Shown one piece after another: positions 46,127-64,000 of a stretch of DNA of 64,000 bases. The stretch covers positions 5,551 to 69,550 of the forward strand of contig CAJTRV010000004.1 in the NCBI GenBank assembly GCA_910578855.1. The letters are read 5' to 3'. Each line of letters opens with the position of its first letter. The first letter of the stretch is position 1. Below the pieces are notes generated by a model, which saw only the letters and a program-made list of their open reading frames with translations, was not told the DNA's origin and did not search any database. Both the position numbers and the translations under genes were made by a program. This DNA is from an uncultured Bacilli bacterium (GTDB lineage Bacteria > Bacillota_I > Bacilli_A > RF39 > UBA660).

Positions 46127-46129
46127 CAA

Positions 46130-46160: not shown

Positions 46161-46162
46161 TA

Positions 46163-48073: not shown

Positions 48074-48115
48074 TCTAACACTCCTTCATTATAAAAAAGG
48101 GCTTACTTTGTAAGC

Positions 48116-48679: not shown

Positions 48680-48786
48680 AACAAATCCTCCTTCTATTTT
48701 CATTATATAATAATTTTCTAAAAAAATATAGATAAATTGAATAAAATTGAATTATTTCATCACTATAACTTAGAAAGGATGGTTAT

Positions 48787-51900: not shown

Positions 51901-52397
51901 AGAAAGGGCATCCCCGCCTCGATCGCCGCTAAATGACTAACCGCCGCCATATCGCCTGCTTCTTCTGGATTAGATGAAGAAAGCATGGCAAAGCCAGTCA
52001 TTCTTGTCGCATAGACATCTTGATGATCCCCTAAAATACTAAGAGCATGAGTCGATAAACTACGGGCTGCTACATGCATTACACAAGGTAGCATTTCCCC
52101 GGCTATCTTATACATGTTGGGTATCATCAACAATAGACCTTGACTTGCTGTATAGGTAACTCCTAAAGTACCAGCTTGTAAAGCCCCATGCAAAACCCCG
52201 GCAGCCCCTGCTTCACTTTGCATCTCGACTACATGGACCTCGGTATCAAACAAATTTTTCATATTCTGACTGGCAAACGCCTCGACATGCTCGGCCATCG
52301 GACTCGACGGTGTAATCGGATATATGCTAGCAAGTTCTGTAAATAAATAAGAGACCCTTGCTACCGCCTCATTACCATCTATCATTAATTTTTTCAT
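48987..52397 (-). CDS. nifJ: Pyruvate:ferredoxin (flavodoxin) oxidoreductase (PFOR / NifJ).
   Basis: 1136 aa single-polypeptide PFOR. 4Fe-4S Cys clusters (CIQCNQCSFVCP, CTGCGLCIKTCP). TPP-binding GGDGW motif. Confidence 0.95.
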   Translation of the reverse strand: MKKLMIDGNEAVARVSYLFTELASIYPITPSSPMAEHVEAFASQNMKNLFDTEVHVVEMQSEAGAAGVLHGALQAGTLGVTYTASQGLLLMIPNMYKIAGEMLPCVMHVAARSLSTHALSILGDHQDVYATRMTGFAMLSSSNPEEAGDMAAVSHLAAIEAGMPFLHFFDGFRTSHELSTVTLLERDDLAPLLNKKKVEKFRTHSLLGETPYTIGTNQNDDIYFQATEARNQAYDAIPDIVNDYMTKINRIKGTHYQPFEYYGSSVAEHIIVAMGSVTETIKETIDVLNEQGYQVGLIIVHLYRPFSPKYLLQVLPTTVQRIAVLDRTKESGSVGEPLYLDIKSVLGDNISVYGGRYGLSSKNTTPADIKAVYDFLRKQPFHNFTVGIIDDVTHLSLPVDHHFYISSSHEMRIYGYGSDGMISASKSLLKLIGTSKNQYIQGYFQYDSKKSGGVTISHLRISEHPIRSTYYVEHPRIVVISKDTYLDDFDCFHGICKNGIVLINTAKTEEELNHLLTPKDKQLLRDQNITCYTIHAYALARKLGLKDKISMIMESAILSLLEDFSHEEMKQELIQYIQHHFYKKGHKVVEANIQALDQALSYITRISIYDTDDAEILDLANKSVINALQNRTANLLPTSAFLKGADGKFYYDEKETMKRGISALVPEWISSNCIQCNQCSFVCPHSVIRPFLLTEAEYQEAPDIVKQRAIKAKTPDLSDYYYLLAVSIQNCTGCGLCIKTCPAIPKALTEISLDDSKRNHEQEIFDYVNQHVTEKPVGNKYTIKGSQFRKPKFEFCGACAGCGEPAYIKLLTQLFGEQLVIANATGCSSIYGASVPTLPYQVSWGSSLFEDNAEYGYGILLSEQLKQERMRALVAKYQREYPIFETWLEQHHDLDQVKELYHTLSTMKLPSELENYRSDFLTKTVWCIGGDGWAYDIGYSGIDHVLSRSDNINILVLDTEVYSNTGGQSSKASPKGTIASFTSSGKKLAKKDLAAIALMYPHVYVAQVSLGGNMQQVIRVMREAANYDGPSIIIAYAPCIAHGLIGGMQESIASEKLAVTCGYFPIFHRHPETGKFLLDYKNVDFDQYENYLRSQLRYQMLETVNPDHAKELFEQNKQDAMRRFQSYQELASKKDC

Positions 52398-52524
52398 AAG
52401 ATCCTCCTTTTAAGCATACGAAAGAAACATTCTATCTATTAATATTTTATCACAAAATTCTATATTATGGGCCCTGGAAACAAGATTTACCAAAAAAGAG
52501 TAGCATCATCGCTACTTTCAATAA

Positions 52525-53151
52525 TTACTTTGTATCTAATTCATCTAAAATATTACGCATTTTCCCTTTGATCCGTTGTAAAGCATTATCGATAGACTTC
52601 GTATTCTTATCTAAAATGCTGGCAATTTCATCATAGGAAAAATGGTTAAGTTTTAATTCAAATACCTGCAATTCAAGATCAGTTAACTGATCTTTGATTA
52701 AATTGGATAAGATATGTTCCCGTTCACTATTTAATAAAACATGTTCTGGATCCGTAGTTTCATCACGTAATAGATAATCAGCATAGACCATTTCATTATC
52801 ATCACCACGCACTTCAAAAGGAACTGATTCATTGAGAATTTTATGTTTCATTCGACGGGTGCTAACAGCTGCAGTAATGATTTTCCGTTCAATACACGTT
52901 TTAGCAAACGTATAAAAAGTAATATTCTTTTTTTCATTAAAGTGATCAATCGCTTTCGATAGACCTAACATCCCTTCTTGAATCAAATCATTGAGTTCGA
53001 GGCCACCATTTTCACAATAAGGAAGCATTTTCTTCGCAAAATTAACAATTAATGGTTTATATTTATCGTATAAAAGAGTTTCTGCTTCATCACTATGTTC
53101 TGCAATCGCATAATTTACCAACTCATAATCATTAAGATCTTTATAATTCAT
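52525..53151 (-). CDS. sigH: RNA polymerase sigma factor SigH-like (sigma-70 regions 2 and 4).
   Basis: LIQEGMLGLSKAIDHF is region 2.2-like. Sits in the conserved rlmB-mrnC neighbourhood as in Bacillus sigH. Confidence 0.75.
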   Translation of the reverse strand: MNYKDLNDYELVNYAIAEHSDEAETLLYDKYKPLIVNFAKKMLPYCENGGLELNDLIQEGMLGLSKAIDHFNEKKNITFYTFAKTCIERKIITAAVSTRRMKHKILNESVPFEVRGDDNEMVYADYLLRDETTDPEHVLLNSEREHILSNLIKDQLTDLELQVFELKLNHFSYDEIASILDKNTKSIDNALQRIKGKMRNILDELDTK

Positions 53152-53157
53152 AAGAAC

Positions 53158-53853
53158 CTACTTTCTAAGTCTTACTGCTTCATAAATAATAATCCCGGCA
53201 GCCACCGAGGCATTTAGACTATTGGTCTTACCCTTCATAGGAATACTGGCAATAAAATCACAGTTTTCTCTGACCATTCGCGCCAAACCGTCACCTTCAT
53301 TTCCTATCACAATCGCACATTTTCCACGATAATCAATATCGCTATAGTCTTCACCCTCCATATCTGTTCCAACAATCCAAAACCCCTGTTTCTTTAAATA
53401 ACGCATCGTATTATTTAGATTGGTTACCTGGGCTATTTTCATATAATCAATCGCCCCCGTACTCACTTTAATAACCGTTGGGGTTACCCCAACAGATCGA
53501 TGTTCTGGAATAATAATTCCATCCACTCCAGCCGCTTCACAAGTACGAATAATCGCACCTAAGTTATGAGGATCTTCTAAATGATCGAGAATGACAATGA
53601 GTGGGTTGTCCCCTTGAATTAGGGTTTCTATTTCATCATACTGAAAATCAGGAACTTGCAAAACAATTCCTTGATGATTTCCTTTAACCATTTGATCCAA
53701 CTGTCTTTTTTCGACATAGCGAATTGGAGCTGCAGTCGTGGCAAGGGCACCTATGACTTCGTTATCCCGAAATTGTTTGGATAAGTAAACCCGTTTTATT
53801 TTCTTGTTCGTCTTAATTGTTTCTAATGCGACATTTTTTCCATAGATATACAT
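53158..53853 (-). CDS. rlmB: 23S rRNA (guanosine-2'-O)-methyltransferase RlmB (SpoU/TrmH family; YacO).
   Basis: SpoU motifs (ILDHLEDPHNLGAIIRT, VIGNEGDG). N-terminal substrate-binding domain. Confidence 0.85.
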   Translation of the reverse strand: MYIYGKNVALETIKTNKKIKRVYLSKQFRDNEVIGALATTAAPIRYVEKRQLDQMVKGNHQGIVLQVPDFQYDEIETLIQGDNPLIVILDHLEDPHNLGAIIRTCEAAGVDGIIIPEHRSVGVTPTVIKVSTGAIDYMKIAQVTNLNNTMRYLKKQGFWIVGTDMEGEDYSDIDYRGKCAIVIGNEGDGLARMVRENCDFIASIPMKGKTNSLNASVAAGIIIYEAVRLRK

Positions 53854-54230
53854 AATTTTTCTCCTAACATTATTTCCATAATTTCTTGAATTCGATTAAA
53901 GTGACCATTTAGATAATGATACCCAATTAATGCTTCTAAACCAGTTGATTCTTTATAAGTTACAATGTCAGTATGCTTAGGATGACGAGATCCTTTATGA
54001 TTCCTGGCACGTTTCACAATCTGAATCTCTTCGGTTGTTAATGATTCCTGATCTAGTAACATTTTTAAATAACGACTTTGGGCTTTGGCACTAACATATT
54101 GAACAGCTTCTTTCTGAAGATCATTCACTTTACAAAGACCTTTTTTTAATAACAGAGTCCGAATAACAACTTCATAAATACTATCACCAACATAAGCCAA
54201 CGCCAAAACATTTAGGCAATCTGTTTTCAT
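53823..54230 (-). CDS. mrnC: Mini-ribonuclease 3 (MrnC / YazC).
   Basis: LNVLALAYVGDSIYEVVIRTLLL is the RNase III signature. 135 aa. Confidence 0.8.
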   Translation of the reverse strand: MKTDCLNVLALAYVGDSIYEVVIRTLLLKKGLCKVNDLQKEAVQYVSAKAQSRYLKMLLDQESLTTEEIQIVKRARNHKGSRHPKHTDIVTYKESTGLEALIGYHYLNGHFNRIQEIMEIMLGEKLCISMEKMSH

Positions 54231-55108
54231 ACAAGTTCCTCAATTCGATCAAAGGTAATTCCTTTTATTAGACCACTTTTCATATCGTTTAAAATGAGAT
54301 TCATCACGCGGTCATAATCAATTTCCCCACCCTGAATCATACATCCTCGACGTTTACCAATGATATCCAACGTGTTAACCATATCTTCTTCATCAATAGT
54401 CGTAATTCCATAACGTGATTCTAACTCCTGAGGATAATAAGTATATAGCATGTTCAAAATGTAACAGACCACATCATAAATAGGCAATACTTCCTCTTTA
54501 ATTGCCGTTAAACTTGCGAGATTAAGGGCAATAGTTTGATCATCAAACTTCGGCCATAGTACCCCTGGTGAGTCTAACAATTCAAGACGCTGATTGATGC
54601 GAATCCAATCCAATGACTTCGTCACTCCAGGACGGTTTCCAACATTGGCAACCTTTTTTCCAACTAAGCGATTGATCAATGTGCTCTTTCCAACATTGGG
54701 AATCCCGACAACAAGGACCCGAATACGTCTTGATTTCATTCCTCTAGCAATCATATCATCCATCTTATCTTGCATCATCGCTTCAGTCTTTTTCACTATT
54801 CCGGTTGTACTTTGTTGATGCTCTAAATCAACCCCCATTACTTGATAACCTAGTTGTTCATAATACCGAATCCAGCGCTCTGTTTCTTTTTTATCACATA
54901 GATCCATCTTGGTCATAATTAACAACTTCGGCTTATTTCCAATAATCGATTCAATATCTTGAATCTTTGATGAGTATGGCATCCGAGCATCGATTACTTC
55001 ATAAACAACATCAATAACACTCATTTTTTCCTTCATAATTCGCTTGGCTTTCGCCATGTGACCGGGATACCAGTTGATTGTCGTATTTTGTCCTTTATTG
55101 TCGTTCAT
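54227..55108 (-). CDS. rbgA: Ribosome biogenesis GTPase A (RbgA / YlqF).
   Basis: Circularly permuted GTPase motifs (IDARMP...TKMDL...GIPNVGKSTLINRL). Start at MNDNKGQ, preceded by AAGGAAGTGAAACAA. Confidence 0.85.
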   Translation of the reverse strand: MNDNKGQNTTINWYPGHMAKAKRIMKEKMSVIDVVYEVIDARMPYSSKIQDIESIIGNKPKLLIMTKMDLCDKKETERWIRYYEQLGYQVMGVDLEHQQSTTGIVKKTEAMMQDKMDDMIARGMKSRRIRVLVVGIPNVGKSTLINRLVGKKVANVGNRPGVTKSLDWIRINQRLELLDSPGVLWPKFDDQTIALNLASLTAIKEEVLPIYDVVCYILNMLYTYYPQELESRYGITTIDEEDMVNTLDIIGKRRGCMIQGGEIDYDRVMNLILNDMKSGLIKGITFDRIEELV

Positions 55109-55559
55109 TTGTTTCACTTCCTTTAGATTTATTTTTATATTTAACATATTCTTCAATTTTTTTATTATAGTTCTTTAAATCTTCTACAAATTGAGGCTTA
55201 AATTGATTTAAATAATCAATGATTAAATCAGCATATTCATCAATATTTTCATCATCAACTATATCTATGAGATATTTATTGATTCCTTTTTTAGTATTTA
55301 TTCTTTCTACATAAAAGGCTAACAAATTAGTTGGACCTATTTTTTCTTTTGCTGATAAAACAATAGAAATCAAATTTTCTCTTGATGCATAATATCTCGG
55401 TTTAAATCCATTTGACCTAGAAAATAATATCAAAGTACAACCAATAAATAATTTATCTGAACCATTTTTAGGAAATGTTTTGTTTGCAAATTCAATTAAA
55501 CTTTCTGTATTACCCTGTTCGTAATCATCATATAGTTCCATTAAAATTCTATTTATCAT
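55095..55559 (-). CDS. Hypothetical protein, the variable last gene of cassette A. Its 3' end reads through the rbgA RBS and start.
   Basis: 154-aa ORF. Its stop overlaps the rbgA start by 14 nt. Confidence 0.4.
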   Translation of the reverse strand: MINRILMELYDDYEQGNTESLIEFANKTFPKNGSDKLFIGCTLILFSRSNGFKPRYYASRENLISIVLSAKEKIGPTNLLAFYVERINTKKGINKYLIDIVDDENIDEYADLIIDYLNQFKPQFVEDLKNYNKKIEEYVKYKNKSKGSETNERQ

Positions 55560-55569
55560 TTTATCTCCT

Positions 55570-55845
55570 CTATTTATATAGACTTTTTATAACTCTATTA
55601 ATGCAATCTTTGGCACTTCTGTTATTATTTGAAAAACTAATTTTTACTAATGTCCCATTTACTTTAAAAGCATATGGATTCTTTGTGGAAGCAATAAAAT
55701 CCAATATTCTTTCATTACTAGGTTTTCTTCTATCTATTTTTATATTTGTTATTTCATCCACATCTTCTAATTTTACATCATCAAGATTTACATTTCTACA
55801 TCTTTCTAATTTTTCTGCTAATTCTTTAATATTATATTTATTCAT
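55570..55845 (-). CDS. Small conserved cassette protein (about 91 aa), paralog of 57697..57996.
   Basis: The N-terminal 50 aa are about 96% identical to the cassette B copy at the protein level, and about 97% at the DNA level over about 145 nt. The C-terminal half is diverged. Confidence 0.5.
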   Translation of the reverse strand: MNKYNIKELAEKLERCRNVNLDDVKLEDVDEITNIKIDRRKPSNERILDFIASTKNPYAFKVNGTLVKISFSNNNRSAKDCINRVIKSLYK

Positions 55846-55927
55846 AAAATCACACTCCATATTAATTATAAAATCAAATACAATTAATGTTAAATGTGCA
55901 ATTTTTTATTATAAATGATAATCTTTA

Positions 55928-56953
55928 CTAATCTTTATTATTTTCTGAAGTTTCTAATAATTTTGTACTTTCAATAAATTTATCGAAGTCAGAAATATAT
56001 AATTGGTCTTGTTTTTCCTTAAACTTATCATACTCTTTATATGCAAGTTCTTGAGCCACTTTATGAGATATTTTTCCTGCATCATGCAGTATTTCTTGCC
56101 CATTAAATTGTAAAAACGCATCCAATTTTTCTACCCAATCTTTCATTGTCATCGCATTATGATTTTCTGCTTGTAATTCAGCATAATCTAAATACATAGT
56201 AACTATTCTATTTAAGTTTTTTAATTCTTTTTCTGTCAAATAATTTTTAGCAATATCAACATCATATTTATAAATCGTTCCATCAGGAGAACCTGTCCAA
56301 TTTGTTAAACCCATATTGTCTTTTTCTGAATCAACTCTATTATAAATAATCTCTGCAGCAGTATTACCAGTGACTGAATAATGAAGTTTATTCTGCACAG
56401 TTTTAAAAAAAGTTTTAGTGATTTCTGAATCTTTATCATAATCAACACTACAAGATGAATATATATCTGTTATCTTTTGGTAAAATCTTCTTTCACTAGA
56501 ACGAATATTTCTAATTCTTTCTAGTGTTCTTTCAAAATAATCTTCTCCAAAAATATAATTTGGATTTTTTAATCTCTCGTCATCCATAACAACGCCAGTA
56601 ATTAAGTATTCTTTTAGAACTTTTGTTGCCCATATTCTAAATTGCGTTGCTTTTTTGGAATTAACTCTATAACCTACAGCAATAATCATATCTAAATTGT
56701 ATATTTTAGATTTTCTTCCACCTGTACTTTCGTCGGAAATTCCGACAGAAGTTTCTTCCTTAAGTTCACCACTATTTAATATATTATTAATATGTTCTGT
56801 TATGGTACTTCTACCTACTCCAAATAATTCAGCAATCAAATTTTGCGTCAACCAAATATCATTATTAATTAATAATACATTCACTTTGATATCATTATTA
56901 TCATCACGATATATTAAAAAGTCGTGGGTAGTTATTTGTAAATTATTTTTCAT
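55928..56953 (-). CDS. RhuM-family protein (the first gene of cassette A, a member of the KilA-N/Bro-N-related superfamily).
   Basis: WLTQNLIAELFGVGRSTITEHINNIL and KIYNLDMIIAVGYRVNSKKATQFRIWATKVLKEYLITGVVMDDERL are hallmark RhuM regions. Confidence 0.75.
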   Translation of the reverse strand: MKNNLQITTHDFLIYRDDNNDIKVNVLLINNDIWLTQNLIAELFGVGRSTITEHINNILNSGELKEETSVGISDESTGGRKSKIYNLDMIIAVGYRVNSKKATQFRIWATKVLKEYLITGVVMDDERLKNPNYIFGEDYFERTLERIRNIRSSERRFYQKITDIYSSCSVDYDKDSEITKTFFKTVQNKLHYSVTGNTAAEIIYNRVDSEKDNMGLTNWTGSPDGTIYKYDVDIAKNYLTEKELKNLNRIVTMYLDYAELQAENHNAMTMKDWVEKLDAFLQFNGQEILHDAGKISHKVAQELAYKEYDKFKEKQDQLYISDFDKFIESTKLLETSENNKD

Positions 56954-57215
56954 TTATTTTCACCGCTTTCTTATGTTCTTAAATGTCGTAATCACCTATC
57001 TAATTTCTATTATAAATAGCGCAAAAATTACTATATTTTTATGAATTTTTATTGTTTTTTATCATTTTTTAATGAAAACATGCAAGATATAAATTGGATA
57101 GTTTCCTTTATTTATAAGGGTTTAAGGGTGTTCTTAATTAAATCGTAATCAACCAGTTTATGTTTGCCTGATTTTGTCGATTTTCATTATTCATTTATTT
57201 CACTTCCTTCAATTC
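56954..57215. repeat. Direct repeat R2, the cassette boundary. It is a degenerate rbgA 5' end (57150-57213) followed by a ~150-bp regulatory region carrying two TGATTACGA motifs (fwd TCGTAATCA at 56986-56994 and 57143-57151).
   Basis: About 85-90% identical to 58900-59147. Contains aaggaagtgaaataaATGaataatgaaaatcgacaaaatcaggcaaacataaactgg on the minus strand. Confidence 0.7.
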
Positions 57216-57704
57216 AATATTATTTTCTAATAAAACGCTTTCTAATGTTTCATTTTCGTTTATAATATATAAGTTCTCATAATTTCTTTGCAAACAATCC
57301 TCATAGAATGGAACAAATACATTTCCCAAGCCACTAATAAAACTTTCATTATTACCTCGATTTATACACTTTCTCTTTACATCTTCCCAATTATTAATAT
57401 TAGGATATGCTATACTGTATTTAATATTATTTTTATCGAAATAATCGAAGTGTTCTGGTTTTAATTGAACTAAAACAACATCATATTCCTTTATAGCCAT
57501 TCGAATGGCTTTATAGTAATTCTTTGGCCATTCACTATTTACTTCTCTTTTCGTTCCTTTTCTTGCTTCAACAGGTACATTTTCAAGATTAGTATTAATA
57601 TATTTAAAATTACTCGATTCTAAATCAATTACATTCCTATATTTTTTACCCAAAATGCTTTTTCCACACGTTGCAAATCCTGCAATTATTATTCCCTTAG
57701 CCAT
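57195..57704 (-). CDS. P-loop NTPase / small kinase-like protein, the variable gene of cassette B.
   Basis: Walker A motif GFATCGKS near the N-terminus. 169 aa. Its stop abuts the pseudo-rbgA ATG of R2. Confidence 0.5.
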   Translation of the reverse strand: MAKGIIIAGFATCGKSILGKKYRNVIDLESSNFKYINTNLENVPVEARKGTKREVNSEWPKNYYKAIRMAIKEYDVVLVQLKPEHFDYFDKNNIKYSIAYPNINNWEDVKRKCINRGNNESFISGLGNVFVPFYEDCLQRNYENLYIINENETLESVLLENNIELKEVK

Positions 57705-57996
57705 TATTTACCTCTTGTCTATATAAATTTTCTAAAATTTTAGTTAAACAATCATCTGCAGTTAAATTACTATTTTCTGAAAATCTTATTCTAACTAATT
57801 TCCCATTGACTTTAAATATATATGGGTTCTTTTTCTTCATTACAAACGCTAATATTCTTTCATTACTAGGTTTTCTTCTATCTATTTTTATATCTGTTAT
57901 TTCATCCACATCTTCTAATTTTACATCGTCAAGATTTACATTTCTACATCTCTCTAATTTTTCTGCTAATTCTTTAATATTATGTTTATTCATATT
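57697..57996 (-). CDS. Small conserved cassette protein, paralog of 55570..55845.
   Basis: MNKHNIKELAEKLERCRNVNLDDVKLEDVDEITDIKIDRRKPSNERIL... The start is at MNKHN; the track ORF is extended upstream. Confidence 0.5.
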   Translation of the reverse strand, partial: NMNKHNIKELAEKLERCRNVNLDDVKLEDVDEITDIKIDRRKPSNERILAFVMKKKNPYIFKVNGKLVRIRFSENSNLTADDCLTKILENLYRQEVNNG

Positions 57997-58056
57997 ATAC
58001 CTTCTTTCTATAATAATTTTATTATTTAGAAAGAAATAACACAAATGTGCAAAATA

Positions 58057-58899
58057 CTAGATATTATCTTTTTCTCCTAATAGTTTTATCTTTTCTGCAT
58101 TATTAAGTATATCAAGTTGATACTTAGCAATGCTACTTAATATTTCAAATCTTTCTTCTTTGCTTTTTCCTTCTTTAATTAGTTCTGCATTATGTGATTC
58201 TAAATTAGATAATACTGTTAATTCATTTATCGATGCATAATCTCTAACATTTGAGTTTTTTGCTAAATTCGGATTAAGTTCTCTCCATCTTTTAGCAGTT
58301 GTGTTAAATAAGGCAACATTTAAAATATCTGCTTCTTCTGCATACTTTAACCATTCTCTATCTTTATAATAATCATTATCAGGTAATATATAATTTTTAA
58401 TTGCATCTGTATGAATAAGATAATTATTTTTGGTTAAGATTCTTTTTATATCCCATTCCCTATTTTGATTTTCTAACTCTTTTAGTCTTTCAAATTCTTT
58501 TATCAAATATAGTTTAAAAACCGGACTAATAGAAGATGCAAATTCAAAAGCAATGTCTTTATGAGCATAAGTTCCACCATATTTTCCACGCTTCGAATAT
58601 ATCCCAATTGCATTTGTTTTACTACACCATTCTGTAACACTTAGTGTAAAAGTATGAAGTCCTGCCTCACTTTTAAACCCGTCGAATTCGACGGAATTAA
58701 AATTTGGATTGTAAATTGACTCCCAAGTACCTAAAAATTCTAAAGTAATTCTATTTCTTAACCAATTTCTGATAACATCATCTGATGTAGATTTTCCTTC
58801 TTTAAACTTGGTAAAATCAGAAATACAAATATAATCGCTATCATTTATATTTGTTATGTTCACTTTAATATTTTGAACTTCAATTATTTTGTTTGGCAT
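58057..58899 (-). CDS. KilA-N domain-containing protein, the first gene of cassette B.
   Basis: DYICISDFTKFKEGKSTSDDVIRNWLRNRITLEFLGTWESIYNPNFNSVEFDGFKSEAGLHTFTLS...RGKYGGTYAHKDIAFEFASSISPVFKLYLIKEFERL matches the widespread KilA-N family pattern. Confidence 0.7.
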   Translation of the reverse strand: MPNKIIEVQNIKVNITNINDSDYICISDFTKFKEGKSTSDDVIRNWLRNRITLEFLGTWESIYNPNFNSVEFDGFKSEAGLHTFTLSVTEWCSKTNAIGIYSKRGKYGGTYAHKDIAFEFASSISPVFKLYLIKEFERLKELENQNREWDIKRILTKNNYLIHTDAIKNYILPDNDYYKDREWLKYAEEADILNVALFNTTAKRWRELNPNLAKNSNVRDYASINELTVLSNLESHNAELIKEGKSKEERFEILSSIAKYQLDILNNAEKIKLLGEKDNI

Positions 58900-59147
58900 A
58901 TATTCGCCTCTTTTCCATGTCCTTAAAATTCGTAATCACCTATCTAATTCTTATAATAAATAATACCAAAATTATTAGTTTTTATATTTTTAATTATTTT
59001 TTAATGAAAATATGCAAGATCTAATCTAGATAATTTTCTTTATTTATAAGGGTTTAATGGTATTCTTAATTAAATCGTAATCAGCCAGTTTATGTTTGCC
59101 TGATTTTGTCGATTTTCATTATTCATTTGTTTCACTTCCTTTATTAT
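58900..59147. repeat. Direct repeat R3 (cassette boundary) with the same architecture as R2. TCGTAATCA motifs lie at 58930-58938 and 59075-59083. The rbgA-like RBS plus 14 codons lies at 59082-59142.
   Basis: ggaagtgaaacaaATGaataatgaaaatcgacaaaatcaggcaaacataaactgg|ctgattacga on the minus strand. Confidence 0.7.
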
Positions 59148-59312
59148 TTAACATTGAGAATTTAAAAAATTTGCAATTTGTTCTAAATTTTTAAATATTT
59201 TTCCATCATTTCTTATAACTATTCCTCTTGCACCATATCTCATTCTAGGCTCATTCATTTCAATCATACTTTCGCCTAAATCTTCATCAGTTATTTTACA
59301 TATTAATTTCAT
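59148..59312 (-). pseudogene. Truncated NUDIX-hydrolase-like N-terminal fragment (54 codons).
   Basis: MKLICKITDEDLGESMIEMNEPRMRYGARGIVIRNDGKIF resembles a NUDIX N-terminal strand. It is followed by an early stop. Not in the ORF track. Confidence 0.35.
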
Positions 59313-59338
59313 TAATATCATCTCGCTTTCATTTTATA

Positions 59339-59863
59339 TTACAACTTGTATTCTTTTATCTCACAATTCTTCAATCCACGATTTAAAAACCAACCATCAT
59401 TAATGCCATCAAAATATGCACTAAAAGCTTTTGAAACACCACTATGTGCAACAATTAAAACACTTTTATAATTTTGAGTTTTAAGTTCATCTAAAAAATT
59501 ATATATTCTATCAAAAAAGTCTTTTATATTTTCAGAGGTTCCATATTGAATTGTTGTATTATAATTCCAATATTCATCACGATTAGTTATTTCAAGAGGT
59601 TTACCACTTAAATCTCCACAACTTCTTTCTTGAATTCTATCATCAATAATAATTTCATTATTATTAGCATTAATAATATTAGCTGTGTGTTTTGCCCTAA
59701 TTAAAGGTGAAGAAATTATAATATCAAAGTTTATATCTTTAATTTTGTCTCTTAATTCTTCTGCTTGACTTATTCCAAGTTCAGTTAAATCTTCATCTTT
59801 TGTATTATATTGTTTCAATGCATTATGAGGTACTTCACCATGTCTTACTATATATATTTTCAT
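59339..59863 (-). CDS. Histidine phosphatase (phosphoglycerate-mutase-like family), in cassette C.
   Basis: IYIVRHGEV (RHG catalytic motif) plus a second His in VAHSGV. Confidence 0.7.
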   Translation of the reverse strand: MKIYIVRHGEVPHNALKQYNTKDEDLTELGISQAEELRDKIKDINFDIIISSPLIRAKHTANIINANNNEIIIDDRIQERSCGDLSGKPLEITNRDEYWNYNTTIQYGTSENIKDFFDRIYNFLDELKTQNYKSVLIVAHSGVSKAFSAYFDGINDGWFLNRGLKNCEIKEYKL

Positions 59864-59989
59864 TTATTGACTCCTTTTTTATAGAATTTTTATAGTAACA
59901 TTTTATCATCGAGGATATATATTTATTTTATTATTGATACCATTATATTAAAATCATACTCATTTTTACTATTTTTATCTGTTTCTAAG

Positions 59990-60717
59990 GTTATATGATT
60001 ATTCTCTGTTTTTCCTTTAAAATAAAGCAAATCAGCTATTTTAAATTGTCGTGTCATTTCGCGTACACAAGCCAGGAAGTCAGGCCCATATGTTCTTTAT
60101 TTGAATCAACTCTATTATATATAATTTCTGCTGTTTGTTTTGATACAGCAAAATGCATTTTGTTTTGTACTTTTTTAAAAAATTCAATTGATATTGGAGA
60201 TTTAAAATCATAGTCAATACTTGTAGCATATATATCTGTTATTTTTTGATAAAATCGCCTTTCTGATAACCTTATTTCTCTAATTTCTTCTAATAATTTT
60301 TCAAAATAATCTTCTCCAAAAATATAATTTGGATTTTTTTATCTTTCGTCATCCATAACAGCATCATTAATTAGATATTCTTTTAAAACCTTTGTTGCCC
60401 ATATTTTAAATTCTGTTGCTTTTTTAGAATTGATCCTGTATCCAACTACAATAATTACATCTAAATTATATATTTTGGTTTTATATTTTTTACCATCAGA
60501 GGCAGTTATCGAGGATTCCTCGATAACTGAATCCTGATTTAATGCATTATCTTTAGAAATTGCAGATTTTTTTATTTCCTTTTCATATAAATCTCTAGCA
60601 CCTTTAGCAACTCCTCCGCCTCTTTTTGCTACATTTAAATTTTCTTTTAAACCTTGCGGATGTTCTTCTCTTGCAATATCTCGTGTTGCAATCTCTCCTA
60701 TATTTGTTCACTAGCTT
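59990..60717 (-). pseudogene. RhuM-family gene remnant. It carries a nonsense mutation (DDER* at about 60345) and a C-terminal deletion. It is fused downstream of the DinD-like reading frame via a frameshift near 60700-60720.
   Basis: DNA about 85-90% identical to cassette A RhuM (compare 56561-56600 with 60331-60370: tctctcg versus tctttcg creates a TAA). The fragment ..KIYNLDVIIVVGYRINSKKATEFKIWATKVLKEYLINDAVMDDER* is present. Confidence 0.55.
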
Positions 60718-61263
60718 TCATTCCAGACCACCCCTTATAGATTTCATTGGTTTGGTTATGCCTCCTTCTTTCCAAACATCTGTAAGTTTAAATCTATCTA
60801 CAACCCCCATTAGTCTTGCCTTAATCCATTCATCAGAGTACCCTTTATTACGATAATAATTTACTGCTCTATTTATTGCAATTTCAGGATCAAATACTTC
60901 ATCAATCCTCTCACTACCAAGACTCGCTAACCAAACTTTAAATGGTTCGGCCTTAGGGCTAGAAACTGATTCAATTAATCTTAATATTCCATTTGTATCT
61001 AAAGTATCAGTTATACGATTTTTACCATCCCGGGCCTCCATTTTCAACTGCACGATTTCTTCGTGCAGTTCACTTCCTTCATAAATTAATCTTCTTTTTA
61101 AACCGCTCCAATAATTTCTTGGGATTTTTGCTTCAGTTAATACACTTATTACATCAGCAACGCTAAAATAATACTCTTCTTTTTCACTATCCCAAATGCT
61201 TCTTATTTCTTTACCTTCAAATAAATTTGATATTGTTTCTAATTTGTTGTTCAAATATAACAC
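60718..61263 (-). CDS. DinD-like (DNA-damage-inducible protein D-like, Bro-N/KilA-N-related) N-terminal portion, the first gene of cassette C. Probably a disrupted gene.
   Basis: EEYYFSVADVISVLTEAKIPRNYWSGLKRRL parallels the DinD N-terminus (FWSARDLAPLLDYRDWRNFQKVL). The frame is broken at 60718 relative to the downstream continuation. Confidence 0.45.
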   Translation of the reverse strand: MLYLNNKLETISNLFEGKEIRSIWDSEKEEYYFSVADVISVLTEAKIPRNYWSGLKRRLIYEGSELHEEIVQLKMEARDGKNRITDTLDTNGILRLIESVSSPKAEPFKVWLASLGSERIDEVFDPEIAINRAVNYYRNKGYSDEWIKARLMGVVDRFKLTDVWKEGGITKPMKSIRGGLE

Positions 61264-61400
61264 CTCTTTTCTATGGTCTTAAATGCCGTAATCATCTTTC
61301 TAATTCTTAAATAAAAATATGGAAAATTTAAAATCGTACAACCTCCTTATTTATAGGGATTTACTTAAGAGTGCAATAAATCGTAATCAAACAGTTAATT
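61264..61400. repeat. Direct repeat R4, an older degenerate copy of the cassette boundary. It has two TGATTACGA-type motifs (61286-61294 variant CCGTAATCA, and 61381-61389). Only codons about 7-14 of the rbgA-like segment remain.
   Basis: cttaaatgccgtaatcatctttctaattcttaaata...ttatttatagggatttacttaagagtgcaataaatcgtaatcaaacagtt aligns with R2 and R3. Confidence 0.55.
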
Positions 61401-61503
61401 CTGACTGATGAAAAACTTTTTTGATTACTTTCGCTATTCTTTTTTCTTGTCTCATTTTTCCCTTTTGATATATATCCATATTTTTCACTTTCTTTTCAAT
61501 AGT

Positions 61504-62064
61504 TTAAAGTTTTTTACCCATTACAATGGGTCTATCATCATAAATATGAATTCTGTTATTTATATCACTAATTAATGCAACAAGTTTTCTAGGATTTTCT
61601 ACTCCTTCAAAACTCATTCCATTTTTTATTTGTTCAATTAAATTATTAGCATAAAAATTAAAAGATATATCTCCATAATTATTTTTTTCTCTTGCAATTC
61701 CAATATGTTCTATATCAGATATATTTTCTATCCTAAATCCATTTTTAGAATTATATAGAGCTATCCTTTTATTGGTAATAAAATATTCATTATTTTTCTT
61801 TTTATATTTTAAGAATATATTATAAACTAATCCATAAATTAAACAAATTGTTAATATGCCCAAAGTAAGAAAAATTATCAAAATTTCAAAATTTAGTATT
61901 TCCCCACTTTTTATACCTATTATAATTAATATCCAAAATAATAACAATACGGCAAAACCTAATAAAAATCTACCATATTGTTTACTAGTCTTACTAACGT
62001 TTGAAACACCATAGAATAATATTTTTTCATTCTCTTCCAATTTATTTATAAACTCATTTTTCAT
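61504..62064 (-). CDS. Membrane protein with a bacterial PH (bPH_2/YdbT-like) domain.
   Basis: Two TM helices, then FITNKRIALYN...ISDIEHIGI, typical of a bPH domain. AT-rich. Confidence 0.45.
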   Translation of the reverse strand: MKNEFINKLEENEKILFYGVSNVSKTSKQYGRFLLGFAVLLLFWILIIIGIKSGEILNFEILIIFLTLGILTICLIYGLVYNIFLKYKKKNNEYFITNKRIALYNSKNGFRIENISDIEHIGIAREKNNYGDISFNFYANNLIEQIKNGMSFEGVENPRKLVALISDINNRIHIYDDRPIVMGKKL

Positions 62065-62201
62065 TTATCTCTCTCCTTACAATTTATTAAATATAATACC
62101 ATTTAATAAAAGAGAATTCCTTTATTAAAATCATTCTAGTTTTATCCACTATAGATTCCTCATAAGATAACCATTTATTCATTTCGAAAATGCATTTATT
62201 T

Positions 62202-62840
62202 TTATTTAAAGATTACATATGGAATGCCCATTTTATGATAAACATCATAAGCTCGTGGCCACGAGAACATTCGGGCAATTAATAAATTATAAAGTTCATC
62301 AAACATGATGATAGAACACAATGTAATTGAAAGCATTAAAAATAATTTTTTATTCATCCGTTTCGCAAGAAAAAAACACATAGGAATTATGACATACATC
62401 AACAATAAACTAGATAACCCAAAGAACATAACACTTCTTAAACAAACAAAACCATGAATGTTTCCAAAGTTTAAAATTTCCGAATTATAATCCCAACAAC
62501 GCATTCCATTTCCAATGATATACATGCCCAAACCTGATATATATTCGAGAATCCCAGTTGCAAAAAAACTAATTAAAAATACCCAGAATGGTTTTTTTCG
62601 ATGCTTGTAAGTTAATAGATAAATCATAATTGAACCTGTCGCATATATATTAATCCATGGTAAGAAATTACCACCTCGCCAATAAAATTGTTTCATACCA
62701 CCATTAAAATAATAAAATATAAATTCATAGATCCAACCAAAAATTCCGGTGATAACGATTAACAGACAACAAATTCCTAGCATCGTCCATTTATCAAACG
62801 AATGATTATTTTCTATATAATGTTTATACCATTTCTTCAT
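62202..62840 (-). CDS. Hypothetical polytopic membrane protein.
   Basis: 212 aa, about 6 TM helices, AT-rich codon usage. Confidence 0.4.
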   Translation of the reverse strand: MKKWYKHYIENNHSFDKWTMLGICCLLIVITGIFGWIYEFIFYYFNGGMKQFYWRGGNFLPWINIYATGSIMIYLLTYKHRKKPFWVFLISFFATGILEYISGLGMYIIGNGMRCWDYNSEILNFGNIHGFVCLRSVMFFGLSSLLLMYVIIPMCFFLAKRMNKKLFLMLSITLCSIIMFDELYNLLIARMFSWPRAYDVYHKMGIPYVIFK

Positions 62841-62896
62841 ACTACTAAACTCCTACCTCATTATATCGTAAACAAAATATTAACTTAACAATTGTC

Positions 62897-64000
62897 CTAC
62901 TTTCGTTCTTCCATTTTCAATATTTTTTGTTTTCCTTTTTCATAACTGCTATCTAACACTTGCTGCTGCTTTAATAACTGTTCTTGTTGAGCCATAACCG
63001 TTTCTTCTAACGATTGTAATTCCTCTAAAAATTGTTCCACTTCAGGACTTCGATCATAAGCGAACTGTCCCATAAACTCCATCTTTAACGATTGAAGTTG
63101 ATCAAGTGAATCAGCGCAAAAATCAATCGACATCATCAAAGCATCTTTCTCTGTTTTTAATTGTTTCATTATCTTTTTTAAATCAAAATAAGCAATATCC
63201 TCGTTTCGGTCTTTGACCATATTGCGCATACCGCGAATTCCATGGTTCGTAAGCAATATCCCAGTTAGTAAGCCAAAGGCATTCTTGCGACTCTTTAATA
63301 ACGTAAAAACCCCCAGACTAGCAAACATTGTATGTTTAATTAACGATCCTAATCGAAAGAGACGACCACGTTTTCTCTTATGTTGTGGCAGTTTCCAAAG
63401 ACTCGCCTGTAATGACTCAATCATAATCCGTTGTTTGGTAATTTCTTGACTCATTTTTTTCTTTTCCAGAGTAATATCGACCATTTTCTCTTTTTGTTTA
63501 TTCAATACTTGTTTCTCTTTTTCTTTTTTTACCACTTGCTGCTTCTGCTTCACTTGCAATTGGTGAGTTCGCTCTTGACACTTCTTCAATCTTGATGCAA
63601 AGATAAGATCGGATGTTAAAAAATGTTCCTTATCTATCTTTTTTAATGTCTTATCAGAGGCAAACTTTGAAAAACGATATTGCTTTCGCATCGATAATTC
63701 TGACATATGACAAGAAAATATTTTATCATAAAGATTCGATAATTGAAGCAGAACCATTCCTATTTCCTTGTCATCAATTGATCCAGTATATTTTGCAAGT
63801 TCCCGGTCAAATTCTTTTAGTTTTTCATGACTTTCTTCTAAATATTGAGCAAGTACCACGATCGCTGGATCTTTACCCTCACCGACTTTTTTTCGTTGTG
63901 GAGAAACCAAGACCATTTCCGTGGCTTCTGCTAGCGCTATTTCTTTTTGTTCTAATTGTTCACTTACCGCATCGATCGTATCAAGTGTTTCCTCAAGTTG
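62897..64000 (-). CDS. Hypothetical coiled-coil / membrane protein. The 5' end lies beyond the window, where the frame stays open.
   Basis: The reading frame continues in-frame upstream of MVLVS to position 64000 (..QLEETLDTIDAVSEQLEQKEIALAEATEMVLVS..). GC returns to the core level. Confidence 0.4.
   Translation of the reverse strand, partial: QLEETLDTIDAVSEQLEQKEIALAEATEMVLVSPQRKKVGEGKDPAIVVLAQYLEESHEKLKEFDRELAKYTGSIDDKEIGMVLLQLSNLYDKIFSCHMSELSMRKQYRFSKFASDKTLKKIDKEHFLTSDLIFASRLKKCQERTHQLQVKQKQQVVKKEKEKQVLNKQKEKMVDITLEKKKMSQEITKQRIMIESLQASLWKLPQHKRKRGRLFRLGSLIKHTMFASLGVFTLLKSRKNAFGLLTGILLTNHGIRGMRNMVKDRNEDIAYFDLKKIMKQLKTEKDALMMSIDFCADSLDQLQSLKMEFMGQFAYDRSPEVEQFLEELQSLEETVMAQQEQLLKQQQVLDSSYEKGKQKILKMEERK

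What the first reader, a model, noticed from the sequence alone, without database searches (positions are those of the whole stretch)
59990..61263. Decaying cassette C: a DinD-like gene fused by frameshift to a RhuM remnant that carries a defined nonsense mutation
The ORF 60718-61263 encodes a DinD-like N-terminus. A second reading frame continues from about 60700 (..IATRDIAREEHPQGLKENLNVAKRGG..) into sequence that is about 85-90% identical at the DNA level to cassette A RhuM (..KIYNLDVIIVVGYRINSKKATEFKIWATKVLKEYL..). That frame is terminated by a single substitution relative to cassette A (tctctcgtcatcc at 56573 versus tctttcgtcatcc at 60343, which gives DDERL changed to DDER-stop). The region upstream of 60060 has lost most of the RhuM C-terminus. 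This shows ongoing recombination between cassettes at the shared KilA-N-like module. It also shows progressive pseudogenisation of the oldest cassette, supporting an age gradient away from rbgA.
Basis: seen in the sequence. Interest (0 to 1): 0.5.

Follow-up and report, generated by a model that had tools for sequence, protein, structure and literature searches.

The report
Broken gene remnants in mobile cassette
This stretch holds the non-functional wreck of two candidate phage-defence genes, broken by several deletions and one stop codon; it is ordinary gene decay, but it sits in an unusual, fast-changing array of small mobile cassettes inserted at the start of the essential gene rbgA.

Summary

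- **Bro-N gene:** ORF 60718-61254 (TTG start) is the front of a 286-290-aa Bro-N ("DinD-like", PADLOC PDC-S13) gene. It is broken by two internal deletions (22 nt and 70 nt), not one frameshift.
- **Fusion:** its tail is butt-joined at 60537|60536 to the start of the RhuM Pfam domain, with no shared module at the join.
- **RhuM remnant (60536-60072):** It ends at Pfam position 155 of 252.
- **Mosaic:** the remnant combines two RhuM lineages. It is 76% identical to cassette A overall and 96-98% only in 60359-60300.
- **Leader:** the cassette leader has also lost 61 nt.
- **Not an artefact:** the same sequence recurs in several assemblies.

Context: the array (61392-55072) sits in the Asn-Trp codons at the 5' end of rbgA. 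Conspecific strains (98-99.7% identical downstream) carry entirely different DNA upstream of that point. Two of them carry a pair of large serine recombinases there.

Verdict: ordinary decay inside a site-specific cassette array that I did not find described. The "age gradient" is not demonstrated.

The parts
61400..61479 (-). Decayed copy of an earlier rbgA 5' end (ATG at 61479; MDIYQKGKMRQEKR...SEL), displaced to the far end of the array. It is the left flank of the distal junction.
   Evidence: Resembles the RbgA N-terminus of L019 (MDMYQKRKMRQEKK...) and the live rbgA 5' end of conspecific strain L102 (...AAAAGTTTTACATCAGTCGGAGTTAACTGG).
61377..61396 (-). Distal junction of the array: degenerate core AACTGT (normally AACTGG) followed by TTGATTACGATTTA.
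   Evidence: Repeat family D10. Junction alignments. The motif AAYTGGTTGATTAYGA recurs in 6 other species, always in rbgA orientation.
61255..61376 (-). Cassette C leader. It carries a 61-nt deletion at 61310|61309, TTTCCA in place of the conserved TTGCA, a second TGATTACG copy at 61296-61285, and the ribosome-binding site AAGAGGTG.
   Evidence: Alignment with six other leaders, from the window (A, B) and from L002, L036, L043 and L047.
60718..61254 (-). Truncated Bro-N ('DinD-like', PDC-S13) ORF of 178 aa from TTG 61254. Codons 1-171 are orthologous; the 22-nt deletion then shifts the frame to ...KSIRGGLE-stop (TGA 60720-60718).
   Evidence: Pfam Bro-N E=3.3e-8. Intact 286-290-aa orthologs. 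DNA alignment. PADLOC PDC-S13 E=3.6e-110 for ortholog P0002.
60745..60749 (-). Site of the 22-nt internal deletion (removes EYAMLTN plus 1 nt). The exact boundary is ambiguous because of a CCAATG/CCAAYG short direct repeat.
   Evidence: Gap at columns 510-531 of alignment A3 against L001 and L005.
60707..60708 (-). Site of the 70-nt internal deletion (removes YKELKGLRKESLRDNMTDIEVAL plus 1 nt). The 38 nt between the two deletions (60745-60708) read EIYKGWSGMKASE in a third frame.
   Evidence: Gap at columns 573-642 of alignment A3.
60537..60707 (-). 3' segment of the Bro-N gene (TNIGEIATRD...SKDNALN), in a different frame from the 5' ORF. It lacks the last ~16 codons and the stop.
   Evidence: Translation. 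85-89% nt identity to orthologs up to 60537, then complete divergence.
60072..60536 (-). RhuM (PDC-S05) remnant covering Pfam positions 1-155 of 252. It lacks the N-terminal ~58 codons and the C-terminal ~40%. It is a mosaic of two RhuM lineages with the switch near 60296.
   Evidence: Pfam. tblastn 68-71% amino-acid identity to intact RhuM genes. Sliding-window identity to cassette A and L102.
60339..60341 (-). In-frame TAA created by TTA→TAA (Leu→stop). It is next to a silent GAG→GAA change and lies in a tract 96-98% identical to cassette A.
   Evidence: Alignment A1. String positions. The same base is present in L009.
59864..60071 (-). Unassigned filler after the RhuM break (contains a 44-aa ORF, 59923-60057). 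The DUF6870 gene expected here is missing.
   Evidence: No family and no relative outside identical contigs. DUF6870 follows the lead gene in cassettes A and B and in many other loci.
59339..59863 (-). Intact cargo gene: histidine phosphatase, 174 aa. It is the only undamaged gene of cassette C.
   Evidence: Pfam His_Phos_1 E=3.5e-36. Distant His_Phos cargo follows DUF6870 in L036, L043 and L101.
59148..59321 (-). 57-aa ORF with no family match; possibly a fragment of a further cargo gene.
   Evidence: No Pfam hit at E≤0.1. No relative in other loci.
59085..59143 (-). 3' end of cassette C: a copy of the rbgA ribosome-binding site, ATG and ~11 codons, ending in the core AACTGG (59090-59085). 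Cassette B's leader follows.
   Evidence: Repeat families D5/D6. 98% identical to the copy at 57158-57209. Junction alignment.

Best explanation
**Shown**
- Window 61392-59087 (minus strand) is the rbgA-distal unit of a three-unit array of ~2-kb cassettes. The array is inserted at the Asn-Trp codons (AAC-TGG) of the NWYPGHM motif at the 5' end of the essential gene rbgA.
- A healthy unit reads: core, then TTGATTACGATTTA, then a promoter-like leader with a second TGATTACGA.
- The genes follow: a lead gene (RhuM, KilA-N or Bro-N type, all three PADLOC 'phage defence candidates'), DUF6870, and a small enzyme gene.
- The unit ends with a replacement ribosome-binding site, ATG and ~11 codons that run back into AACTGG.
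- Cassette C is a wreck with six lesions:
  1. A 61-nt deletion in the leader.
  2. A 22-nt deletion inside a 286-290-aa Bro-N gene.
  3. A 70-nt deletion inside the same gene.
  4. A deletion that butt-joins Bro-N codon ~270 to RhuM codon ~58 at 60537|60536.
  5. TTA→TAA in the RhuM part.
  6. Loss of the RhuM 3' 40% together with the DUF6870 gene.
- The RhuM remnant is itself a recombinant of two RhuM lineages.
- No functional fusion protein is encoded. Only the histidine-phosphatase cargo gene is intact.

**Inferred**
- Cassette C descends from two neighbouring cassettes, one Bro-N-led and one RhuM-led, collapsed into one by lesion 4. The order Bro-N cassette then RhuM cassette is common elsewhere.
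- The cassettes are moved in trans by a pair of large serine recombinases. These would act at the imperfect palindrome AATCAAC-TG-GTTGATT, much as SCC elements are moved by CcrAB.
- Lead genes are lost often because they are costly or no longer selected.
For: **Lesions**
- Translations and Pfam matches.
- Intact orthologs of 286-290 aa exist. No protein covering both halves appeared among the best hits for the conceptually repaired fusion.
- Nucleotide alignment shows the 22-nt and 70-nt gaps and the end of Bro-N homology at 60537.
- The stop codon, the RhuM mosaic and the leader deletion.

**Reality of the sequence**
- Identical sequence in L090, L093 and L094, and in L009 from another study.

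**Array and site**
- Copies of the rbgA 5' end at each cassette boundary.
- Junction architecture is conserved in other species.
- Cassette proteins are 95-98% identical in species whose RbgA is only 51-60% identical.
- Conspecific strains are 98.2-99.7% identical for at least 9.8 kb downstream of window 55075-55079. Upstream of that point they are unrelated.

**Recombinase**
- DUF6870 followed by two large serine recombinases sits directly upstream of rbgA in conspecific strains L097 and L098. The same is seen in two other species, L019 and L034.
- Recombinase fragments occur inside other arrays.

**Two-cassette origin**
- Bro-N cassette followed by RhuM cassette in L003-L007, L027, L043 and L047.

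**Lead genes as defence candidates**
- PDC-S13, PDC-S05 and PDC-S22 at E=1e-110 to 1e-140. These candidates are untested, by 10.1101/2024.01.29.577857.

**Precedent for the target**
- Tn5253 and other streptococcal ICEs integrate in the first 17-20 nt of rbgA and restore its coding sequence (PMC8571831; PMC4701971).
Against: - No undeleted parent was found (a Bro-N cassette followed by this RhuM lineage). The two-cassette origin is therefore inferred from the join and from gene order elsewhere.
- The 178-aa ORF keeps its ribosome-binding site and a complete Bro-N domain. A truncated protein could still be made if there is read-through from upstream.
- Three of the identical assemblies may derive from the same mouse-gut dataset. 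The clearly separate contig (L009) covers only 61344-60288.
- The window contains no recombinase.
- The recombinase-bearing elements lack the TGATTACGA leader, so their action on these cassettes is not shown.
- No excised circle or empty site was observed directly.
Confidence: 0.8

Rival explanations
1. A single frameshift fuses a DinD-like gene to a RhuM remnant. The fusion arose by ongoing recombination between cassettes of this array at a shared KilA-N-like module. The decay marks the oldest cassette of an age gradient running away from rbgA.
For: - Frames, stop and truncation exist.
- Part of the remnant (60359-60300) is 96-98% identical to cassette A.
- Cassette C is the only damaged unit and is the most distal one.
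- If new units enter at the rbgA-proximal site, distal units are older.
Against: - There are two deletions of 22 and 70 nt, not one frameshift.
- The join lies between the Bro-N tail and RhuM Pfam position 1, with no homology between the partners.
- The A-type tract is equally close to RhuM genes of other species.
- The internal rbgA-5' copies show no gradient.
- rbgA-proximal lead genes are the broken ones in L003, L004, L006, L007 and L016.
Confidence: 0.15
2. The truncated 178-aa Bro-N protein is still expressed. On this view it has been retained as a shortened DNA-binding regulator or decoy, rather than being a dead gene.
For: - The Bro-N domain (residues 19-113) and the ribosome-binding site are intact.
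- No intrinsic terminator-like site lies on the minus strand across the array, so read-through transcription is possible.
- The exact protein is seen in several metagenomes.
Against: - The leader has lost 61 nt, including both −10-like stretches.
- All copies found are near-identical, so their conservation says nothing about selection.
- The C-terminal ~110 residues, invariant in many columns among orthologs, are out of frame.
Confidence: 0.1
3. The lesions are artefacts of metagenome assembly. On this view they are chimeric joins between repeated cassettes, or indel errors.
For: - The window is identical to a metagenomic scaffold.
- Cassettes share repeats.
- Contig L009 ends by switching to cassette-A-type sequence.
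- L008 looks mosaic.
Against: - The same 2,338 nt occur in assemblies made by different pipelines.
- L009, from another study, has the deletions, the join and the TAA.
- The longest identical tract between cassettes A and C is about 40 nt. That is shorter than the k-mers named in the contig ids (k107, k127).
Confidence: 0.03
4. A natural Bro-N-RhuM fusion gene is read through by programmed frameshifting or stop-codon suppression.
For: RhuM Pfam position 1 begins right at the join, as it might in a designed domain fusion.
Against: - Reading it would need three frames and a TAA read-through.
- No protein with both halves appeared among the best hits in a 5.8-billion-protein search with the repaired fusion.
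- The RhuM domain is cut at position 155 of 252.
Confidence: 0.02

Closest known systems
Staphylococcal cassette chromosome (SCC/SCCmec) composite islands moved by CcrAB/CcrC large serine recombinases
   Same: - Site-specific insertion at one end of a conserved housekeeping gene, without inactivating it.
- Tandem arrays bounded by short repeats of the target.
- Units that lack recombinase genes lie next to units that carry a pair of large serine recombinases.
- Frequent internal deletions and remnants.
   Different: - The target is the 5' end of rbgA (Asn-Trp codons), not the 3' end of rlmH.
- Units are only ~2 kb and carry a shared promoter leader.
- The recombinases are only distant relatives of Ccr (98 bits against a cut-off of 900).
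- The hosts are uncultured mouse-gut Bacilli.
- Recombinase action on these cassettes is inferred, not shown.
Tn5253 / Tn5252-type and other streptococcal ICEs that integrate in the 5' end of rbgA (PMC8571831, PMC4701971)
   Same: - Same target gene and the same place: the first codons of rbgA, ending at the conserved I-(Q/N)-W codons.
- The element carries a replacement 5' end, so the rbgA coding sequence is restored.
   Different: - Those elements are large conjugative elements with tyrosine integrases.
- Here there is no integrase and no conjugation or mobilisation gene.
- The units are 2 kb and arrayed.
- The recombinases seen at the site in sister strains are serine recombinases.
Integron gene-cassette arrays
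   Same: - Array of small, one-to-three-gene units in one orientation at a fixed site.
- Variable cargo.
- Units lack their own recombinase.
- Distal units decay.
   Different: - No IntI tyrosine recombinase and no attC hairpin sites.
- Each unit has its own promoter-like leader instead of relying on a common Pc.
- The array feeds into an essential gene.
PADLOC phage defence candidates PDC-S13 (Bro-N type) and PDC-S05 (RhuM type), from 10.1101/2024.01.29.577857
   Same: The intact ortholog and cassette A's RhuM match the models end to end (E=3.6e-110 and 4.9e-140).
   Different: - Those candidates were defined by being embedded in BREX, DISARM or type I R-M loci, and are untested.
- Here they head mobile cassettes next to rbgA.
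- The copies in cassette C are broken.
Escherichia coli DinD (SOS-inducible protein, b3645) and Salmonella RhuM (SPI-3)
   Same: - DinD also has an N-terminal Bro-N domain and is 274 aa long.
- Its C-terminal half shows a weak colinear motif resemblance.
- RhuM gives its name to Pfam PF13310, which the remnant matches.
   Different: - There is no significant pairwise similarity to DinD (BLASTP E=6.3).
- SOS control was not examined.
- The window copies are fragments.

Membership tests
Pseudogene (decayed copy of a known gene family) | Intact full-length orthologs exist, against which the copy shows frame-breaking lesions. | tested here: met
   Orthologs of 286-290 aa. Gaps of 22 nt and 70 nt, loss of the last ~16 codons, a TAA in the RhuM part, and RhuM cut at position 155 of 252.
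Pseudogene (decayed copy of a known gene family) | Lesions are reproducible rather than sequencing or assembly errors. | tested here: met
   Identical in L090, L093, L094 and L009. Independence of the first three samples is uncertain.
BRO-N domain proteins (Pfam PF02498) | Significant match to the Bro-N profile at the N-terminus. | tested here: met
   E=3.3e-8, residues 19-113, profile positions 1-91 of 96, above the gathering score.
DinD (E. coli DNA-damage-inducible protein D) family | Sequence homology to DinD over its length. | tested here: inconclusive
   Both proteins have an N-terminal Bro-N domain and similar length. BLASTP gave E=6.3. hhalign gave E=0.042 and probability 1.2% over 57 C-terminal columns. 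No NCBIfam model matched.
DinD (E. coli DNA-damage-inducible protein D) family | LexA/SOS-regulated expression. | not tested
   No LexA-box search was made. The leader is shared with RhuM- and KilA-N-led cassettes.
RhuM family (Pfam PF13310) | Complete RhuM domain (252 profile positions) in one reading frame. | tested here: not met
   Only profile positions 1-66 and 71-155 are present, split by a TAA. Cassette A's copy covers positions 16-249.
PADLOC PDC-S13 / PDC-S05 candidate defence genes | Full-length match to the PDC profile. | tested here: met
   Met for the intact relatives P0002 and cassette A RhuM. The cassette C copies themselves are fragments.
PADLOC PDC-S13 / PDC-S05 candidate defence genes | Protection against phage. 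| not testable with these tools
   The source paper lists the PDCs as untested candidates.
Integron cassette array | IntI-type tyrosine recombinase with attI next to the array, and attC hairpin sites between cassettes. | tested here: not met
   No recombinase was found in the window by tblastn with the serine recombinases. No integrase family appeared among array ORFs or in precomputed Pfam lists. Junctions are rbgA-5' copies plus TGATTACGA leaders, not attC.
SCC-like element (large-serine-recombinase cassette at a housekeeping gene) | Pair of large serine recombinase genes at the same integration site. | tested here: met
   Seen in conspecific strains L097 and L098, and in L019 and L034. Domains are Resolvase, Recombinase and Zn_ribbon_recom. 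Absent from the window itself.
SCC-like element (large-serine-recombinase cassette at a housekeeping gene) | Recombinases are Ccr orthologs and the target is the rlmH 3' end. | tested here: not met
   CcrB model scored 98 bits against a cut-off of 900. The target is the rbgA 5' end.
SCC-like element (large-serine-recombinase cassette at a housekeeping gene) | Excision and integration of the recombinase-less units by those recombinases. | not testable with these tools
   Inferred only from shared site, strain polymorphism and recombinase remnants in arrays.
rbgA-5'-end integrating ICE (Tn5253 type) | Integration within the first codons of rbgA, with duplication that restores the coding sequence. 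| tested here: met
   The breakpoint is at AACTGG in all strains, and each unit ends with a replacement 5' end. Compare PMC8571831.
rbgA-5'-end integrating ICE (Tn5253 type) | Tyrosine integrase and conjugation module. | tested here: not met
   None in the window's array or in the arrays surveyed.

The most novel reading that the evidence does not exclude
The wreck at 59990-61263 would be a fossil inside a family of mini mobile cassettes that I did not find described.

- The units are ~2 kb and insert at the Asn-Trp codons of rbgA in uncultured gut Bacilli.
- Each unit brings a shared promoter leader, one of three interchangeable candidate defence genes (RhuM, KilA-N or Bro-N type), and DUF6870. 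DUF6870 may be a recombination accessory, since it also precedes the recombinase pair.
- Each unit also carries a nucleotide- or phosphate-modifying enzyme and a replacement start for rbgA.
- The units would be exchanged between species and shuffled within species by a pair of large serine recombinases acting in trans. This would be an SCC- or integron-like system for defence candidates, tied to expression of an essential gene.
Probability: 0.45. Interest if true: 0.65.

Novelty: new member of a known kind. Interest (0 to 1): 0.3.

Why it matters
- **The finding itself** is ordinary. It is a deletion-riddled, nonsense-bearing remnant of two accessory genes, and it should be annotated as pseudogenes rather than as a fusion gene.
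- **As a marker of turnover.** The lesions show non-homologous deletion collapsing neighbouring units. The RhuM mosaic shows homologous exchange between RhuM alleles.
- **The surrounding array** points to a site-specific cassette system at the start of rbgA that swaps candidate phage-defence genes between and within gut Bacilli species.
- **If the recombinase link holds,** the system offers a defined att site and a recombinase pair for experiments. It would also give a natural setting in which to test three untested PADLOC candidates and DUF6870.

Tried and rejected
- **Rfam:** a scan of 54000-62500 at E≤1 found nothing, so the leader is not a known RNA family.
- **Promoter consensus scan:** uninformative in this AT-rich DNA, with fewer hits than in shuffles.
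- **NCBIfam:** no model for the Bro-N ORF, the RhuM pieces or the intact orthologs.
- **PDB sequence search:** no relatives for the Bro-N ortholog or for RhuM.
- **Other TGATTACGA copies:** those at 29164 and 37330 lie inside unrelated ORFs and were dismissed as chance.
- **Distal rbgA-5' copy in L019 and L034:** the search for one bounding the recombinase elements gave only noise.
- **Source species:** the genome-contig scan did not contain it, with best RbgA identity 72%.
- **Exact look-up of the 293-aa RbgA:** failed.
- **The idea that 61479-61400 is simply the native chromosomal rbgA start:** weakened. L102 carries a similar 5' end behind a RhuM cassette, so it may itself be cassette-borne.
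- **NUDIX guess for the 57-aa ORF:** dropped for lack of any match.
- **L008 as the pre-fusion state:** not relied upon, because the 1.4-kb contig may be chimeric.
- **Second large protein search for natural Bro-N-RhuM fusions:** judged unnecessary.
Full report
**Setting.** All genes of the region lie on the minus strand. rbgA runs from 55108 (ATG) to 54227.
- **A:** RhuM 55928-56953, DUF6870 55570-55860, and a 154-aa ORF.
- **B:** KilA-N protein 58057-58899, DUF6870, and a 169-aa P-loop-like ORF.
- **C:** the subject of this finding.

**Unit boundaries.** Each unit ends with a copy of the rbgA ribosome-binding site, ATG and about 11 codons. These copies lie at 55075-55125 (the live one), 57161-57211 and 59093-59143. 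Each copy runs into the hexamer AACTGG. In the internal junctions it is followed by TTGATTACGATTTA and a ~200-nt conserved leader, which holds a second TGATTACGA about 35 nt before the lead gene.

**The observation: what holds.** The ORF at 60718-61263 has a Bro-N domain (E=3.3e-8).

**The observation: the Bro-N gene.** Aligning two intact orthologous genes (L001, L005) with the window gives four results:
- The start is TTG at 61254.
- 22 nt are missing at 60749/60745, between CCAATG/CCAAYG short repeats.
- 70 nt are missing at 60708|60707.
- Homology to the Bro-N gene ends at 60537, about 16 codons before the natural stop.

The gene is therefore split over three frames: the 5' ORF, 38 nt reading EIYKGWSGMKASE, and TNIGE...SKDNALN. 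That is not one frameshift.

**The observation: the RhuM remnant.**
- From 60536 the same frame continues as RhuM, starting at Pfam position 1.
- It is interrupted by TAA at 60341-60339. Cassette A has TTA at that position.
- RhuM homology ends at 60072, at profile position 155 of 252.
- Overall identity to the cassette A RhuM gene is 76.5% over 408 nt at the DNA level and 68% at the protein level. That is no closer than to RhuM genes in other genomes.

**Further lesions.**
- The cassette C leader lacks 61 nt at 61310|61309 that are present in six other leaders. The conserved TTGCA reads TTTCCA.
- The DUF6870 gene that follows the lead gene in cassettes A and B and in many other loci is absent.
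- The stretch 59864-60071 and the 57-aa ORF at 59148-59321 match nothing.
- The histidine-phosphatase gene (59339-59863) is intact.

**The remnant is a mosaic.** A sliding comparison gives:
- **60480-60296:** cassette-A type, 76-98% identity, reaching 96-98% in 60359-60300.
- **60296-60150:** 93-100% identical to the RhuM gene of a conspecific strain (L102), and only 49-76% identical to cassette A.
- **Switch point:** GATTATTTTGAAA|AATTATTAG.

Homologous exchange between RhuM alleles has therefore happened. However, the A-type tract is just as close to RhuM genes of other species (L001, L047), so cassette A of this array is not identified as the donor.

**Are the lesions real?**
- The window from 45928 to 64000 is 100% identical to an ENA metagenomic scaffold.
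- The whole of cassette C (61480-59143) is byte-identical in that scaffold, in a MEGAHIT assembly of a mouse-gut run, and in an NCBI MAG. Some of these may share raw data.
- A contig from a different study (L009) covers 61344-60288 with no difference until its last 12 bases. It includes both deletions, the join and the TAA.
- The longest tract identical between cassettes A and C is about 40 nt. That is shorter than the k-mers named in the contig ids.
- Assembly error is therefore very unlikely.

**What the array is: spread between species.** Contexts of the intact Bro-N orthologs show the same kind of variable array directly upstream of rbgA. It holds Bro-N, RhuM, KilA-N and DUF6870 genes plus small enzymes.

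A scan of species-representative genomes with RbgA found only uncultured Bacilli/"Tenericutes" gut MAGs, with best identity 72%. Cassette genes lie immediately upstream of rbgA in about 20 of the ~45 loci from this clade. None were found in the more distant Clostridia or Negativicutes loci.

The cassette proteins are 95-98% identical to the window's where RbgA is only 51-60% identical. This is horizontal transfer with a fixed target. The junction architecture is conserved across species.

**What the array is: variation within the species.** Contigs carrying the identical Mini-III gene are 99.6-99.7% identical to the window for at least 9.8 kb downstream (L102: 98.2%). They become unrelated exactly upstream of window 55075-55079, which is AACTGG, the Asn-Trp codons of NWYPGHM. 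Strains carry at that point:
- the C-B-A array;
- DUF6870 and a histidine phosphatase;
- another RhuM and a 211-aa gene;
- in L097 and L098, a PemK toxin, a resolvase fragment, DUF6870 and two large serine recombinases of 569 and 528 aa.

**The recombinase link.** The same DUF6870-recombinase-recombinase-rbgA module occurs in two other species. Recombinase fragments lie inside other arrays. The recombinases are distant relatives of XisF and CcrB/C, far below family cut-offs. The window has none.

The inter-cassette junction reads as an imperfect palindrome, AATCAAC-TG-GTTGATT. That is the form expected of a serine-recombinase site with a central dinucleotide; this reading is my inference.

**The distal end and transcription.** At the far end of the array, 61479-61400 is a decayed earlier rbgA 5' end. 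No terminator-like site lies on the minus strand across the array, which is compatible with transcription running through into rbgA.

**Explanation.** Cassette C is best read as the collapsed remains of two neighbouring units, one Bro-N-led and one RhuM-led. They were fused by a non-homologous deletion. That deletion removed the Bro-N tail, whatever followed it, the junction and leader, and the first ~58 RhuM codons.

Bro-N cassette followed by RhuM cassette is a common order elsewhere: L003-L007, L027, L043 and L047. The parent itself was not found, so this step is inferred.

Disrupted lead genes are frequent in these arrays and are not confined to distal units. RhuM is split in the rbgA-proximal unit of L003, L004, L006 and L007 while the distal Bro-N gene is intact. 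KilA-N is split next to rbgA in L016. The two internal rbgA-5' copies are 98% identical to each other and show no gradient of decay. The "age gradient" is therefore compatible with this one array but is not supported as a rule.

**Comparison with what is known.**
- The three lead-gene types match the PADLOC candidates PDC-S13, PDC-S05 and PDC-S22 end to end. These are untested candidates, defined by being embedded in BREX, DISARM or type I R-M loci.
- "DinD-like" is fair at the level of architecture. E. coli DinD also has an N-terminal Bro-N domain and is 274 aa. It is not supported by pairwise similarity (E=6.3), and only faintly by a profile comparison.
- The 5' end of rbgA is a published target of streptococcal ICEs with tyrosine integrases, which also restore the coding sequence.
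- Functionally, the nearest analogy is the SCC composite island. It shares recombinase-less units and units with a serine-recombinase pair at one housekeeping-gene end. Membership fails on target and on recombinase orthology.
- It is not an integron: there is no IntI and no attC, and each unit has its own leader.
- Full-text searches found no paper mentioning DUF6870. None linked rbgA with serine recombinases beyond the streptococcal ICE literature.

**Cargo.** Sixty array ORFs from 17 sources (16 loci and the window) were scanned.

| Family | ORFs |
|---|---|
| HAD phosphatases | 6 |
| GNAT acetyltransferases | 4 |
| Histidine phosphatases | 3 |
| ASCH | 3 |
| Maf | 2 |
| PurA fragments | 2 |

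Single ORFs matched inositol monophosphatase, a nucleotidyltransferase, VanY, dCMP deaminase and AAA ATPases. Elsewhere in the arrays there are CAT, UDG, NUDIX, a metallo-beta-lactamase and YhcG nucleases.

**Verdict.** The finding is a real but ordinary pseudogene complex. Its anatomy needed correction, and the mechanistic gloss (recombination at a shared module, an age gradient) is only partly borne out. The more interesting object is the array it belongs to.

Noticed in passing
window 55070-55079 (AACTGG of rbgA); loci L097, L098, L101, L102, L104, L105: Conspecific strains (98.2-99.7% identical for at least 9.8 kb downstream) carry completely different DNA upstream of this exact point. This gives at least four array haplotypes at the rbgA 5' end within one species.
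   Followed up: yes
L097:4237-8459, L098:2280-6502, L019:6288-9893, L034:6293-9905: DUF6870 followed by two large serine recombinases (about 570 and 526 aa) lies directly upstream of rbgA. This is seen in sister strains and in two other species. They are only distant relatives of XisF/CcrB/CcrC. Recombinase fragments also lie after the Bro-N gene in L002-L007 and upstream of rbgA in L029.
   Followed up: partly
window 57143-57158, 59075-59090, 61377-61396; L001, L024, L036, L043, L047, L049: The inter-cassette junction reads as an imperfect palindrome, AATCAAC-TG-GTTGATT(ACGA). Each leader has a second direct copy of TGATTACGA ~35 nt before the lead gene. In L001 the stretch between the two copies is deleted.
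   Followed up: partly
window 61400-61479: A decayed earlier rbgA 5' end (MDIYQKGKMRQEKR...) lies at the far end of the array. It resembles the live rbgA start of strain L102 and of L019. The genes between lepB and this point (524, 552, 212 and 186 aa in L090) may therefore be still older insertions.
   Followed up: partly
window 55928-56953, 58057-58899; P0002: All three lead-gene types (RhuM, KilA-N type, Bro-N type) match untested PADLOC candidates end to end: PDC-S05, PDC-S22 and PDC-S13. Here they head mobile cassettes instead of sitting inside R-M or BREX loci.
   Followed up: partly
L027, L036, L047, L052 versus window cassettes A and B: Cassette proteins are 95-98% identical in species whose RbgA is only 51-60% identical to the window's. 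This indicates recent horizontal transfer of cassettes among uncultured gut Bacilli.
   Followed up: yes
arrays in 16 loci plus the window (alignment A5): Cargo genes are mostly small nucleotide- or phosphate-modifying enzymes: HAD, GNAT, His_Phos, ASCH, Maf, NUDIX, dCMP deaminase, UDG, CAT and a metallo-beta-lactamase resembling Apyc1. No integrase appeared among the 25 commonest families.
   Followed up: partly
L008 (ERZ28572040), 1-1466: This contig has 2 mismatches against window 61699-60628 and includes the 22- and 70-nt deletions. It then diverges into a natural Bro-N 3' end and an rbgA only 48% identical to the window's. It is either transfer of an already broken gene or a chimeric contig.
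   Followed up: partly
L091/L100:1852-1927 versus window 55849-55767: A contig from the same sequencing run as L093 differs from the window only in a ~75-nt stretch inside the cassette A DUF6870 gene, where no DUF6870 ORF is called. It partly resembles the cassette B copy. This may be exchange between the two DUF6870 copies.
   Followed up: no
P0001 (381 aa): One Bro-N homolog carries an internal tandem duplication of about 95 residues (the EGSEL...DEWIK block twice).
   Followed up: no
window 54900-61700, minus strand: There is no intrinsic-terminator-like site on the coding strand across the whole array. rbgA may therefore be transcribed from the cassette leaders.
   Followed up: no
window 45928-64000: This stretch is 100% identical to ENA ERZ28667134 scaffold_68. 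Related contigs come from mouse-gut metagenomes. The species is absent from the species-representative genome collection, where the best RbgA identity is 72% (uncultured Bacilli).
   Followed up: yes
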